Assembly (NCBI GenBank): GCA_964016885.1 | Contig: OZ024743.1 | Coordinates: forward strand, 52,886,001-52,950,000 | Origin: Eledone cirrhosa | Taxonomy: Eukaryota | Length of the DNA stretch: 64,000 bases | Direction of reading: 5' to 3' | Shown here: positions 23,596 to 59,621 of the stretch, in pieces | Position numbering within the stretch: position 1 is the first letter of the stretch | Layout: each line of letters begins with the position of its first letter | Translations under genes and position numbers: made by a program | Notes under the pieces: generated by a model | Seen by the model: only the letters and a program-made list of their open reading frames with translations | What the model was told of the DNA's origin: nothing | The model's database searches: none

Positions 23596-24044
23596 CATGG
23601 AACTCTTTTAACCATCTTTTGATCTTATATATTATTTATACTCCAGTCCTACAAACTGTAGAGTGCTACTTATCCGATATCTGCATTGCTTTATTGTACT
23701 ACAATAAAACTCACCTCCTACATATATATATATATATTTATATATATATATATATATATATATATATATATATATATATATATATATACACACACGTATA
23801 TAGTCAACAAGGGAGTGATCTCCCTTACATCTTAGTAGTTTCATTGAAGAGTTTGCCATAATTTCAGTAAGGTGACCTACCTTGACTAATAAAGACCGAT
23901 CGTAAGAATATTAATTAGAATAGGCTTCACCAGAGCCTTGGTTCTTATATCTCCCCCACTTAGCTGAAGGGTCTAATTCACGACTGGGAAAAACTCTTGG
24001 GTAGTGATATATATCGGTGGTCTTCAACCTATTTTCATGATACT

Positions 24045-24365
24045 AACTCCAAATATTACTGAGAGACTTATAGGAGGACCTCACTCCTTAAACTTGTCAT
24101 TACACGATACAGTCCCCAAATATTACTGAGAGACTTATAGGCGGACCTCACTCCTTAAACTTGTCATTACAAGATACAGTCCCCAAATATTACTGAGAGA
24201 CTCGACACCTCGCGGTATGAATCCCAACTATTATTGTGAGATGAGACATAAAAACCTCTTAAACTCAATATTTCATAATATGAACCCCAAATATTACTGA
24301 GAGATGTATAAACACCTCCTTAAACTATTTCATGACATGTGTCCTATCATATTACTGAGACCTTT
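24045..24365. repeat. Degenerate tandem repeat of about 60-70 bp
   Basis: Recurrent ccaaatattactgagagact...ccttaaact motif. Confidence 0.7.
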
Positions 24366-24514
24366 ACACTTCAGAACAGAAAGAATGTACATGTACACAT
24401 TTATTCCTGTTTTCCTTCATAAAAAATGTTATGAAGAATGTCAGGAAGAACTGTCAAACTCTCCTGACAAACGAAATAGGGATTTCCATTTTCCACGACT
24501 CCTCTAAATATTTT

Positions 24515-24604
24515 AGTGAACCCTATGGGCTGGTATATACCAATAGTGAAACCTATGGGCTGGTATATACCAACAGTGAACCCTATGGGCTGGTATATAC
24601 CAAT
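24515..24604. repeat. Three copies of a 30-bp tandem repeat
   Basis: agtgaaccctatgggctggtatataccaat x3. Confidence 0.9.
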
Positions 24605-24840
24605 TCTGGAGGCCATTAATTTGTATCATCGTATATGACAGCAACAGGGCCGAATTTAGGATAGATGAGGCCCTGCATTAGTTATGAGGTCCTTTACTTG
24701 AAAGATATTTGAAAACTTTACCGTAAAATAACTTTTTGGCAGGAAGATAGGACCCCTCCTGGCCAACGGGTCCCTGTGATTAAGCACACCTAAATACAAT
24801 GGTAAATCTGGCACAGCAATTATGTTCATCAGAACCTCAC

Positions 24841-24974
24841 CTTGCTCCACTTGTGTTGGGGTCTTGTGGTCGAGGGGTTTAACTCTAGTCAACGGTGGGG
24901 TTTGGATCTGTCGCTGGAATCTGAACTCAGAACGCAAAATACTGGAACAGATATCGCAAGGTATCTTTGACATT
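24841..24974 (-). CDS. Candidate MMP prodomain-end exon
   Basis: tttttag|A ATG...CAA G|gtgagg; ends in phase 1, giving ...TQVEQ-G-SKW with the next exon. Encodes MSKIPCDICSSILRSEFRFQRQIQTPP.... No clear homology recognised. Confidence 0.45.
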
Positions 24975-25757
24975 CTAAAAATTGTGCTAATCCAGCAAAC
25001 TGGACTGGCATTTTATTTATATTTATCAAACCTGAAAGGATGGAAGCCGGATAATTCAAGTTAAAAAAAAGACACACACGAAGAACGAAGTCTTATTAGT
25101 TTCAGGCTTTATGGAAGAGAAAGAAAAAGAATGTTTCAACGTATCGGATGACAGCCGATTACAAATATATATAATGTGAACTGGTACTAGGAAAAACTAG
25201 GTAAAATTTGTTGAAATTAAACCATGCAAGATTTCACAGCGCTACCATTACTATTTCTTAGTCAGCCTACCCTCGTGTATATATATATATATATATATAT
25301 ATATATATATATATATATATATATATATATATATATATATATATATATATATATATATATATATATATATATATATACGTATATATACGTACATAATATA
25401 TATATATATATAAATATATATTTAAAGGTTAAACAAGGTTCAATGAATAAATCAAAGAATGAGTTTTACAATAGATTGGAAGCACTCCACAGGTATGGTT
25501 TTCCGGAGTTATTAATATTAATTCAAAATATTAACAAAAATAGACATTCGTGTGATCAAGTATATTTTATCTTCAACAGTACGTCCTCATCAGATAAAAT
25601 AAGATGATGCATGACATATCGTGACTTAGTAGATGGTTAAGATTCAGTCATTTTGAATTAATATTATATATACATATATATAGAAAATATATACATATAT
25701 ATAGAAAACAAAATAAAATAAATAAGTCAAATATTTAAAATTTAGCTTCGTTTAATA

Positions 25758-25810
25758 CTGCTATATATATTTCGGTGATAGCCATCTTTGGCTGTGACCT
25801 CTTCAGGCAG
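25758..25810 (-). ncRNA. Type I hammerhead ribozyme
   Basis: cugc CUGAAGA ggucacagccaaagauggcuaucacc GAAA uauaua UA gcag. Confidence 0.75.
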
Positions 25811-26046
25811 ATGGCTGTCACTGAAATATATATAGCAGTATTAAACGAAGGTAAATTTTAAACATTTGACTTATTTATTTTATTTATTTTACATTACTCC
25901 GGAGTAACCAAACCAACCTACGCACTTCGTCGAGTGCTCCATTCTGCATACTGAGGTGTTGGTATACAACCAACATATACTCTATATATATATATATATA
26001 TATATATAATATTAATAAATGGAAAATATCCTTATAAAACGATATT

Positions 26047-56599: not shown

Positions 56600-56848
56600 A
56601 TTAATCCGTATGTTGAGCAAATGGGGGCTCACGTGGTGGCCTCCCCACAGCCCCGGCGGACAGGATGGAGAAGGCGTTTCCCCAGAGGATGGTAAGAGAG
56701 ATGCGCTGGAAGAGCCATTCCAACTCGCGAGGCTCACACCTGCGGCTGGCCAGCTCAGCGCCTATGGTGGTGAATAGGGAGGTAGCCTTAGGGCCAAGGA
56801 CACCAGAAGTCTCCACTGCCAAGGGCACGACCACGATCCTGTCGGTTC
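56600..56848 (-). mobile_element. Second CRE-like 3' fragment
   Basis: VVPLAVETSGVLGPKA...LFQRISLTILWGNAFSIL; paralogous to 55665-55935. Confidence 0.7.
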
Positions 56849-57247
56849 TCTTAACAACTTAAATGCAATTGTCCTTTGTGATTTTGTAAAGCTTAGTACT
56901 GAGTTACCCTATATATTTGTATATAAGGCGATCCAAACATAAGCTGACCCCAGCCCTACTTTATAACTAAGAAATGGGCTAAATTTCAACCGCCCTTTAT
57001 AAACTAAGGCAGCTAATCAACACATGTTTACATGGTGAATATAAGCTGACACATTTTACCATCGATTTTTGGTGATATATTCCTTGGCTTATATTCCAAT
57101 ATACACGGCAGTTCGTTACATAATCCCTCCTACAGTAATTACTGGTATAAACCTTATGTTACAGTTCAGGTTTGTAAACTTTTTTTTTATATATTAACTC
57201 ACCACAAATCTTGTCTTTATTTTACATCTTTAACATCGGTTGACTGA

Positions 57248-57748
57248 TGTGGTGGTGTTGTGGTGGTTATGGTGGTGTTGTGGTTATGGTGGTGTTGTGG
57301 TGTTGTCGTGGTGTTGTGGTGTTGTCGTGGTGTTGTGGTGTTGGAGTGGTGTTGTGGTGTTGTGGTGTTGTGGTGGTGTAGTGGTGGTGGTGGTGTTGGA
57401 GTTATGGTGGTGTAGTGGTGGTGTTGGAGTTATGTTGGTGTTGGGGTGGTGTTGTGGTTATGGTGGTGTTGGGGTTATGGTGGTGTTGTGGTGTTGTGGT
57501 GGTGTTGTGGAGTTGTTGTGGTGTCGTGGTGTTGTTGTGGTGGTGTAGTGGTGGTGTTGGAGTTATGGTGGTGTAGTGGTGGTGTTGGAGTTATGGTGAT
57601 GGTGATGGTGATGTTGGTGGAGATGTTGACGGTATTAGTGAGGCTGGTAATACTGTGATGTTGATGTTGATGTTGATGGTGTTGATGATGATGTTGGTGA
57701 TATAGATGGTGATGATGATGGTAATGTTAATGGTGATGATGATGGTGT
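57248..57748. repeat. GT-rich low-complexity tract ((GTGGT)n, (GAT)n)
   Basis: Direct reading. Confidence 0.85.
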
Positions 57749-58449
57749 TCCAGTGTACAAAAGGTGAGCTCCACATTAGGTATGTATCCATAATTACCTG
57801 TCACATCTGTCAGCTGTGATGTGATTGGTCACTTTAAACTTACTCCTCTTCCTCGCCCCCATTCTTTTCTTTCTTTATTTTTACCTTTCCATCATCCCCC
57901 ACCATCACCCACAGCCAACCCCCATTCCCTTTCTTAATTGAATCTCTGACAAAAAAATATTATTTTTGCCATAGTTTTTCTGGAGAATTTTTTCCTACCA
58001 TCCTTAACAAATAATTGTTTCTACTTTTGGCACAAGGCCAGCAAATACCCCAGTGCATTACTGGTACTTTATTTTATCGACCCCATAAGGATGAAAGGCA
58101 AAGTTGACCTCGGCGGGATTTGAACTCATAACTATTAATAATGTAACCATTACATTTATTATGCAATAAAACAATTATGTAAAGCTAACTCTGTTTTAAC
58201 GCTATTTTGTATATATCATCATCATTACCGTTTTACGTCCGTTCTTCCACGCTAGCATGGGTTATACAGGTTGTCTTGTTATGGGCAATGCCCAGTCGGC
58301 TGACCTTGTCTTGCACATACGAGAATTGATTCTGGCTTGATTTCTACAGCTGGATGCCCTTCCTAACACCAACCTCATTCACAGTGAGTGCTGAGTGCTT
58401 TTTTTCCGTGGCACCTATATATATATATATATATATATATACACACAAA

Positions 58450-58752
58450 ATCGGCGGGATTTGAACTTAGATCACAATGGGCCATAACTCTATGCTGCAA
58501 AGCATAGTGTCTGACGCTCTACCGATACTGCCAAATAATGGTTTCAGATTTAGGCACAAGGCCAGCAATTTTGGGGGAGGGGAAAGTCAATTAAATCGAT
58601 CCAGTGCATTACTGGTACTTTATTTTAAAAACCCTATAAGGATAAAAGGCTAAGTTGACCTTGGCGGGATTTGACCTGAGTACGTAAAGGGCCGTAACTC
58701 TATGCTTCAAAGTATTGTGTCTGACGCTCTACTAATACTGCCAATCCCCCAC
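58450..58752 (-). mobile_element. Two SINE family 1 copies
   Basis: Same consensus. Confidence 0.85.
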
Positions 58753-59396
58753 CTTAACAAATAATGGGGTGTGTGGGCGAGGGGCGATATATTGGATACT
58801 GTATTCCTAGAATACACTGTGTCTGAAAACAGAAAGACAAAGATGGTCATGGCTGGAAAGCCAATGATCATAGGTCTGCTTGTTAACTCATAACATCCTT
58901 GTAATGATTTAGCAGGAAAATGTCTAGAAGCAGGCTTGTTAATTCAAATGTTTGTAGTATTTTTACTAGTGGAACGAAAGTTACCAAAAATTGCAGCTTT
59001 AGAGTAAAGACATTTAATGTCTTTAATGTGATGCAGTGTTTGGTTGTTTTCAGAGAATGTCTAGCTAATGTGACTTCATGTGGAACAGAATGTGATGCAG
59101 TGTTCATTATTCACCTAATGAGATCAGTGATAATCGATCATGACCACACGATCGATCTATCCCTTATTGAAACATGTGTCGTGATTAAAATGATTGGAAA
59201 TGTATACCATGCCTTCGGATCTTTATTTTGATACAAATATCCGTTTTACATCATCTAGCTGTTCCCATGAATGGAATTGGAGATATACAAAAGCGTGGAG
59301 AACTTAACAACCCAACCAGGAACTGGGCATATCAGAGTATTGACAAAATTATACACCTCAACAACATATGTACTTGTCTATACCACACTAATTCGG

Positions 59397-59451
59397 ACTG
59401 ACTGAAGAGGTCACAGCCAAAGATGGCTGTCACTGAAATATATATAGCAGT
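59397..59451 (+). ncRNA. Type I hammerhead ribozyme motif
   Basis: acuga CUGAAGA ggucacagccaaagauggcugucacu GAAA uauaua UA gcagu; near-identical, together with about 150 nt downstream, to the 25758-25985 element. Confidence 0.7.
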
Positions 59452-59621
59452 AATAAACGAAGCTAAATTTTAAACATCTGACTTTTTATTTAACTTTATT
59501 TTACATTACTCCGGAGTAACCAAACCAACCTGCGCACTTCGTCGAGTGCTCCAGCCTGCATACTGAGGTGTTGGTATACAACCAACATATACTCAAAATC
59601 TCTCTCTCTATATATATATAT

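What the first reader, a model, noticed from the sequence alone, without database searches (positions are those of the whole stretch)
23638..59552. Second conserved motif, ACTC(C)...GAGTGCT, downstream of the hammerheads
Seen: about 45-90 nt 3' of several hammerheads, in otherwise dissimilar sequence, lie tACTCcagtcctacaaactgtaGAGTGCT (23640), tACTCcagaaactgttGAGTGCT (37910), tACTCcggag...tcGAGTGCT (25896, 59507) and aACTCcgg...gtgGAGTGCT (25481-25510, minus strand). Orphan versions sit beside TA tracts at 27004-27033, about 40562, about 45003, and as GAGTACT at 31426 and 31668 (minus strand). ACTC pairs with GAGT around a variable loop. Inference: an undescribed cis-acting RNA hairpin, such as an RT recognition or 3'-processing signal, or a tertiary partner of the ribozyme.
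Basis: partly seen in the sequence, partly recalled or inferred. Interest (0 to 1): 0.7.

Follow-up and report, generated by a model that had tools for sequence, protein, structure and literature searches.

The report
Twin hairpins mark Penelope copy ends
A small bulged hairpin, kept across distant animals and usually present twice in one group of Penelope-type jumping genes, sits a few bases beyond both places where inserted copies end, and likely tells the element's reverse transcriptase where to start copying.

Summary
The motif is real: 9 hits in the window against 0.28 in shuffles. It is a bulged hairpin (RCTC-Y, loop, R-TN-GAGY-RCT) in Hydra-clade Penelope-like elements (PLEs). Full elements carry two tandem copies between hammerhead and start codon: 18 of 34 non-redundant metagenome elements have two, 11 have one, and so do 9 of 9 families of this genome where a read-through junction was found. 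Inserted copies end in (TA)n mostly 6-9 nt before either hairpin (313 of 317 mapped ends lie near one), which accounts for the known PLE 'tail'. The inner stem covaries, but not in short-loop copies. The tie is to element ends, not to the ribozyme: only 6 of 27 unselected hits have a hammerhead core upstream. Two 'orphans' were read on the wrong strand. Best reading (inferred, 0.7): an RT-binding signal that fixes internal initiation. Family-specific (CT)n/(CA)n tracts at some junctions hint at stuttering starts. I found no published description. This scan noted the same hairpin earlier on other DNA of this genome and in one other genome.

The parts
23525..23595 (+). Type I hammerhead motif, family A (core starts 23533; range approximate)
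   Evidence: descriptor hit
23640..23667 (+). Hairpin copy 1, family A; long end into (TA)n at about 23721
   Evidence: second copy seen in L261
25481..25509 (-). Hairpin copy 1, family C; damaged hammerhead core at 25593-25587; TA tract 25278-25421
   Evidence: no read-through junction found for this family
25709..25982 (.). Fold-back insertion, family B: inverted arm stops at the short end (hammerhead core 25806, minus), direct arm runs through the hairpin to the long end
25896..25938 (+). Hairpin copy 1, family B
   Evidence: second copy and Hydra ORF start in L417-L430
26013..26297 (.). Fold-back element with two short ends: two hammerhead cores (26099 minus, 26210 plus), no hairpin on either arm
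27005..27033 (+). Hairpin copy 1, family F (3-nt bulge), in a 5'-truncated copy between TA tracts
   Evidence: second copy with a long loop (85 nt in L372)
27152..27889 (-). Family J remnant: endonuclease-region ORF piece 27545-27889, hammerhead core 27217, short end 6 nt before where the hairpin would start
27926..27974 (-). Hammerhead with U4C core change, 3' of the PLE ORF remnant; copy stops at the short end near 27880 (range read by eye)
   Evidence: same layout in L017, L022
29306..31055 (-). Broken Hydra-clade PLE ORF (RT and GIY-YIG pieces 29306-30172, 30289-30603, 30714-31055)
31191..31228 (+).
31426..31452 (-). Hairpin copy 1, family I (G-U variant in the outer stem)
31667..31693 (-). 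Hairpin copy 1, family I
   Evidence: second copy and Hydra ORF start in L431-L445
37911..37932 (+). Hairpin copy 1, family D, on the long arm of a fold-back element (hammerhead cores 37799 plus, 37643 minus; the inverted arm stops 7 nt before the hairpin)
   Evidence: second copy in L093
40373..40396 (+). Hairpin copy 1, family G (GCTC/GAGCACT form)
40563..40581 (-).
45005..45028 (-).
59508..59550 (+). Hairpin copy 1, family B (hammerhead core 59402); long end followed by a short (CT)n and then (TA)n

Best explanation
The motif is a conserved bulged hairpin, usually present twice between the hammerhead and the start codon of Hydra-clade Penelope-like elements, lying 6-9 nt beyond each of the two sites where insertions end, and it likely serves as the RNA handle that positions the element's reverse transcriptase for internal initiation. 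Shown: sequence, structure by covariation, duplication, fixed distance to both ends, (TA)n junctions that begin with 2-5 nt of TA-type overlap. Inferred: a read-through RNA spanning pLTR and ORF start is bound by the RT-endonuclease protein at either hairpin; the endonuclease nicks (TA)n; the 3' end would pair with the UA-rich nucleotides just 5' of the hairpin; cDNA synthesis runs away from the hairpin, so the hairpin used is never copied. Starting at copy 1 gives the short end, starting at copy 2 gives the long end with its 68-166 nt tail that holds copy 1. One start at each hairpin on opposite strands would give the lopsided fold-back insertions seen in the window.
For: Two copies: 26 of 45 metagenome ORF starts have two, 39 of 45 at least one (shuffles 4 and 166 of 9000; ORF-internal windows 4 of 417); non-redundant 18 two, 11 one, 5 none of 34. 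In this genome 9 of 9 families with a read-through junction have a second copy. For families B and I this was predicted first: patterns holding only the 5' arm found it 6 nt after the long end, followed by the 3' box (10 of 14 B loci intact; 15 of 15 I loci, 12 distinct places) and a Hydra ORF start. Ends: 313 of 317 TA-abutting ends in 8 families fall within -20..+3 of a hairpin start, modes mostly -6 to -9; 11 of 22 alignment breaks in metagenome loci lie within 5 nt of one; public contigs show (AT)n loose ends at L431:1447 and 1527, hairpins start at 1453 and 1531. Structure: inner stem, not used for selection, pairs in 147 of 192 cells with a 2-nt bulge, 47-68 in other registers, shuffles max 118, 0 of 5000; first inner pair C-G 43, U-A 18 of 64; 13-nt-loop set 0 of 500 shuffles. 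Precedent: in the Anolis Poseidon PLE, RT starts internally at two adjacent sites that bound the tail and needs RNA 3' of the start (start +111-118, minimum RNA to +172; PMC11167929). Junction tracts match the family's own last bases: (CT)n in 10 of 37 family B long ends, (CA)n in 11 of 22 family G long ends, none of the other kind; the other end abuts TA in 8 of 10 and 9 of 11, as expected of a stuttering start.
Against: No biochemical or RNA evidence was obtained. G-U versus A-C counts do not tell the strand (11 vs 9 in the inner stem; 3 outer-stem A-C/C-A mismatches among 11 variant copies). The 10-nt-loop set (17 rows) shows no covariation above shuffles; only one inner pair holds there (75 of 500). 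Single hairpins fold weakly: z from +0.29 to -2.52, and 3 of 10 minimum-energy folds do not form the predicted hairpin cleanly. Shuffles ignore relatedness. Long-end counts are inflated because DNA queries included the long end. Family G's short end is only 3-4 nt before the hairpin (by eye). 4 of 22 breaks do not fit (+32, +4, -21, -83) and 7 are uninformative. The Anolis start site was reported as not homologous to the cut DNA, unlike the overlap inferred here. Run X1 may be the window's own sample. Longer terminal duplications are rare (6 of 397).
Confidence: 0.7

Rival explanations
1. The hairpin acts as DNA: the GIY-YIG endonuclease recognises it in single-stranded cDNA or donor DNA and cuts 6-9 nt upstream, so the two ends are resolution sites of a concatemeric intermediate.
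For: Craig et al. attribute the tail to endonuclease-mediated resolution (PMC8557442); the D. virilis endonuclease needed the tail for recognition (as cited in PMC11167929); strand test inconclusive.
Against: In vitro RT starts coincide with tail ends in the Anolis PLE; family-specific dinucleotide tracts between end and (TA)n fit synthesis better than cutting.
Confidence: 0.13
2. The hairpin directs RNA processing or marks a transcript boundary (a nuclease cut 5' of it, or the start of an antisense template), and RT simply starts or stops at that RNA end.
For: The geometry is the same as in the best explanation; an antisense template was considered for PLEs (PMC3846280).
Against: The Anolis protein starts inside an unprocessed sense RNA; a cut at copy 2 would separate the ORF from its leader.
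Confidence: 0.1
3. The hairpin is a ribozyme partner or a translation element, and its closeness to the ends is incidental.
For: Copy 1 lies about 50-60 nt after the cleavage site in families A, B and D; copy 2 lies within about 20-90 nt of the start codon.
Against: Each copy tracks an end at nearly fixed distance while spacing between copies varies from 68 to 166 nt; families F and I keep both hairpins without a canonical hammerhead core; family F copies are 648-nt tandem units.
Confidence: 0.05

Closest known systems
Hydra clade of C-terminal EN+ Penelope-like elements (Craig et al. 2021, PMC8557442; seen: section 11, passages, supplement parts 2, 52, 53)
   Same: RT plus C-terminal GIY-YIG, DKT, CxCX5C linker, (TA)n targets, hammerhead in the pLTR, inverted 5'-truncated copies. 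By eye, 4 of their 6 File S7 sequences carry the hairpin (Hydra-2_Amil, Hydra-1_Ajap, Hydra-2_Ajap, Hydra-1_Crog as variants); Hydra-1_Amil and Hydra-1_Obim stop soon after the hammerhead without it.
   Different: The paper's main text has no 'hairpin' or 'stem-loop' and gives the tail as 30-40 bp; here tails are 68-166 nt and bounded by twin hairpins.
Internal RT start sites and tail of the Anolis Poseidon PLE (Frangieh et al. 2024, PMC11167929; seen: parts 1-2 of 4 and passages)
   Same: Two adjacent internal start sites that bound the tail; AT-rich targets; RNA 3' of the start is required; hammerhead cleavage not needed.
   Different: There the start lies in an AC-rich stem loop inside the ORF and no conserved binding motif was defined; here a duplicated motif conserved across phyla lies in the 5' leader, 3' of each start.
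Minimal type I hammerheads of PLEs and animal retrozymes (PMC4209133 part 1 of 4; PMC7229834 passages; bioRxiv 10.64898/2026.07.22.740005 part 1 of 5 and passages)
   Same: The upstream ribozyme motif and tandem non-coding derivatives (family F).
   Different: In the text I saw, none describes a second conserved element downstream.
3' stem-loops recognised by LINE proteins and the telomerase template boundary element (recalled, not from a call)
   Same: A small protein-bound helix that sets where reverse transcription begins or is confined; PLE RTs are sister to telomerase RTs.
   Different: LINE stem-loops lie inside the copied region near the RNA end and the telomerase boundary lies 5' of the template; this hairpin lies 3' of the start and stays uncopied. 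No sequence likeness was tested.

Membership tests
Hydra-clade PLE | Single ORF with RT and C-terminal GIY-YIG endonuclease | tested here: met
   832-aa open frames in L031-L050; GIY-YIG in the window remnant, E 2e-4, just under Pfam's cut-off
Hydra-clade PLE | DKG changed to DKT; RWK motif near the N-terminus | tested here: met
   DKT present; RWR in this family, RW invariant and mostly RWK in relatives
Hydra-clade PLE | CxCX5C linker; CxxC and CxH in the endonuclease | tested here: met
   read in the protein against the definition
Hydra-clade PLE | CCHH motif absent | tested here: inconclusive
   not evident by eye; no alignment to canonical PLE endonucleases was made
Hydra-clade PLE | Insertion into (TA)n | tested here: met
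Hydra-clade PLE | Hammerhead motif in the pLTR | tested here: met
   families A, B, D, G, H, J, K; not canonical in F and I
Hydra-clade PLE | Generally short (<3 kb; a tendency, not a strict criterion) | tested here: not met
   family H is about 4.2 kb; family I tandem unit about 3.5 kb
Hydra-clade PLE | Placement in the Hydra clade in an RT tree | not tested
   no tree built; 95 homologs at 29-40% identity
Known Rfam RNA family | Covariance-model match at the motif | tested here: not met
   one search listed only 150 of 225 weak matches, none naming the motif
RT-initiation signal | Protein binds it and the start site depends on it | not testable with these tools
   needs binding and reverse transcription assays
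RT-initiation signal | Fixed position relative to 3' junctions | tested here: met
Hydra-specific element | Absent from other PLE clades | not tested
   hammerhead families without the motif exist in this genome but their clade was not determined

The most novel reading that the evidence does not exclude
The hairpin anchors a telomerase-like mini-template: the PLE RT, held at the hairpin, copies the first two template bases repeatedly before it elongates. This would add family-specific (CT)n and (CA)n, and lengthen (TA)n where the template starts with UA, so that these elements both target and manufacture the microsatellites that fill this genome. It would be a conserved RNA-protein module linking PLE and telomerase mechanisms.
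Probability: 0.25. Interest if true: 0.85.

Novelty: new variant of a known kind. Interest (0 to 1): 0.62.

Why it matters
How PLE reverse transcriptases, the sister group of telomerase, recognise their RNA and why insertions carry a one-sided tail are open questions. This motif gives a short, cross-phylum candidate signal with a sharp prediction: move the hairpin and the start site moves. It also gives a rule for setting Hydra-element boundaries. At 27 hits per 580 kb it would occur on the order of 10^5 times in this 3.0-Gb genome (extrapolation).

Tried and rejected
Rfam: no family for the motif or for these hammerheads at gathering score. MAFFT alignments of variable-loop copies misplaced the 5' arm, so no covariance model was built; anchored counts and equal-length sets were used instead. 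Strand test by G-U versus A-C: inconclusive. RNA evidence: no RNA holder listed; the contigs laid cannot show strand or expression. The regex hit at 1540-1561 and GAGTGCT strings at 41334, 49835, 54557, 58386, 58393, 59796 do not pass the descriptor and are treated as unrelated. Family I has a hammerhead-like layout without the canonical core; Rfam and folding did not identify it; the non-circular-permutation paper mentions Penelope only in its references. No second copy could be looked for in family C (no read-through among 27 anchors). Lunse et al. 2017 on PLE hammerhead variants was not held and may bear on novelty; bioRxiv supplements and Repbase entries were not seen. The clade of the motif-less hammerhead families was left undetermined.
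Full report
Check of the observation. The window is C4:52886001-52950000 of a 3.0-Gb animal genome; that it is octopus-like is my recollection from its SINEs, not a call result. A descriptor for the full hairpin finds 9 hits in the window (shuffles: mean 0.28, max 2) and 27 in 58 stretches of 10 kb taken at round coordinates (60 asked, 2 absent; shuffles 0-5). The descriptor misses the 27005, 31191 and 40563 variants and picked the wrong 5' arm at 40378. The 'orphans' at 40562 and 45003 are minus-strand copies of the GCTC...GAGCACT form.

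What carries it. The ORF pieces at 29306-31055 have young intact relatives of 832 aa with DKT, CxCX5C, CxxC and CxH motifs and (TA)n junctions, the marks of the Hydra clade. The motif-bearing stretches in the window are short 3' pieces of at least nine such families (A-D, F-J here; K from other loci), often as fold-back pairs.

Two ends. In families B and D, copies stop either 6-7 nt before the hairpin or about 45-65 nt after it; family H does the same with a 165-nt tail. In fold-back insertions the inverted arm usually takes the short end. Where a copy reads through into the next ORF, a second hairpin follows the long end: A, D, H, J, K, F, G (G's box is degenerate, J's is a TCTC/GAGA form, loops of J, K and F copy 2 are about 65-85 nt). 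I then predicted it for B and I: 31 of 44 matches of the B pattern and nearly all of the 100 listed I matches (487 in all, with double counts; reversed controls 0) read the same 6-nt spacer and 5' arm, followed by the 3' box and a Hydra ORF start that were not in the pattern. Mapping TA-abutting ends on natural references put 313 of 317 within -20..+3 of a hairpin start, with modes mostly -6 to -9 (long ends over-sampled; BLAST blurs some offsets, and B's short end was read by eye). Public contigs laid on family I show (AT)n loose ends at 1447 (75 contigs in X1, 8 in X4) and 1527 (313, 16, and 1 in X5), 6 and 4 nt before the hairpins counting the 3-nt TA overlap; X1 may be the window's own sample.

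Beyond this genome. An alignment of 61 Hydra-like proteins retrieved 77 metagenome loci. Of 50 ORF starts, 45 had 130 nt or more upstream: 39 carry the motif, 26 twice (two starts were duplicates; the antisense strand scored 10 of 45 because the hairpin is near-palindromic). After removing redundancy: 18 two, 11 one, 5 none of 34; by eye 4 of the 5 have variant boxes or a misplaced start. Eleven of 22 alignment breaks among these loci lie within 5 nt of a hairpin, 4 do not fit, 7 are uninformative. By eye, published Hydra sequences from a coral, a sea cucumber and a copepod carry it too (4 of 6 in File S7).

Structure. In 64 instances (47 metagenome, 17 from this genome) the outer stem is GCTC/GAGC 55, ACTC/GAGT 8, GTTC/GAGC 1 (pairing was required for selection, so this is not a test; TCTC/GAGA occurs in 3 further copies). 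The inner stem was not selected for: 147 of 192 cells pair with a 2-nt bulge, against 61/192, 57/192, 47/177 and 68/168 in other registers; shuffled partners reach at most 118 in 5000 trials. The bulge starts with U and the 3' tail is RCU in 62 of 64. The 13-nt-loop set covaries (0 of 500); the 10-nt-loop set does not (75 of 500). The conserved core is thus five pairs, a bulge and a single-stranded RCU, weak on its own, as expected of a protein-stabilised site (inference).

Relation to the hammerhead. Enriched about tenfold but not obligatory: 6 of 27 unselected hits have a core upstream, 26 of 27 a TA tract downstream; by eye 10 of the 27 are family I and 5 F-like, which lack a canonical core. 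Most hammerhead hits (30 of 47) belong to families without this motif or are false.

Mechanism. The Anolis PLE protein starts cDNA inside its RNA at two sites that bound the tail and needs RNA some 55-60 nt 3' of the start. The twin hairpins sit where such a binding site would be, one per start. Junctions begin with 2-5 nt of TA-type overlap in most families (read), which would let the nicked target prime there. Between end and (TA)n, family B has (CT)n in 10 of 37 long ends, G has (CA)n in 11 of 22, J (CT)n in 4 of 31, A (CA)n in 4 of 41, whereas D, F, H and I have 1 of 64, 0 of 22, 0 of 53 and 3 of 73. The unit matches the element's own last bases, and the other end abuts TA in 8 of 10 and 9 of 11. 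This favours stuttering at initiation, though priming in compound microsatellites or later repeat birth is not excluded; longer terminal duplications are rare (6 of 397). All steps involving the protein are inferred.

Novelty. Nine literature searches and the passages read gave no description of the motif; Lunse et al. 2017 was not held. The element class, hammerhead and tail are known, so this is a new cis-element of a known system. I had recorded the twin-hairpin reading before seeing that three earlier notes on this genome and one on another say the same; they are not independent support. A search for the stutter observation among earlier notes returned nothing.

Noticed in passing
window 59590-59615; L052, L060, L066, L067, L070, L071 (family B); L379-L395 (family G): Family-specific (CT)n or (CA)n tracts between the element's 3' end and the (TA)n, matching the element's last bases.
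   Followed up: partly
window 31470-31770; L431:1385-1440: Family I has a hammerhead-like layout (stem, palindrome, flanking arms) without the canonical core; 5' truncation and fold-back points cluster at about L431:1392.
   Followed up: partly
window 27926-27974 (-); L016, L031-L050: Hammerheads of family H and K carry a U4C change in the catalytic core.
   Followed up: no
L367, L372, L374: Family F occurs as 648-nt tandem units with both hairpins, like a non-autonomous PLE derivative.
   Followed up: partly
L145, L149, L113, L159; window 62596 (-), 2608 (-): Other hammerhead-bearing families, some in tandem arrays of about 311 and 482 nt, end in (TA)n without this motif; they may use a different signal.
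   Followed up: no
window 3004-4415 (-): Exon-like pieces of a matrix metalloprotease gene (HExxHxxGxxH zinc motif; name recalled, not searched).
   Followed up: no
window 48769-52489 (+) and 60043-62166 (-): Two LINE-type RT/endonuclease remnants, the first nearly full length.
   Followed up: no
window 7314-17622, 18626-21511, 5870-6988: Large satellites of 25, 53 and 39 nt; the 39-nt array switches orientation at 6761.
   Followed up: no
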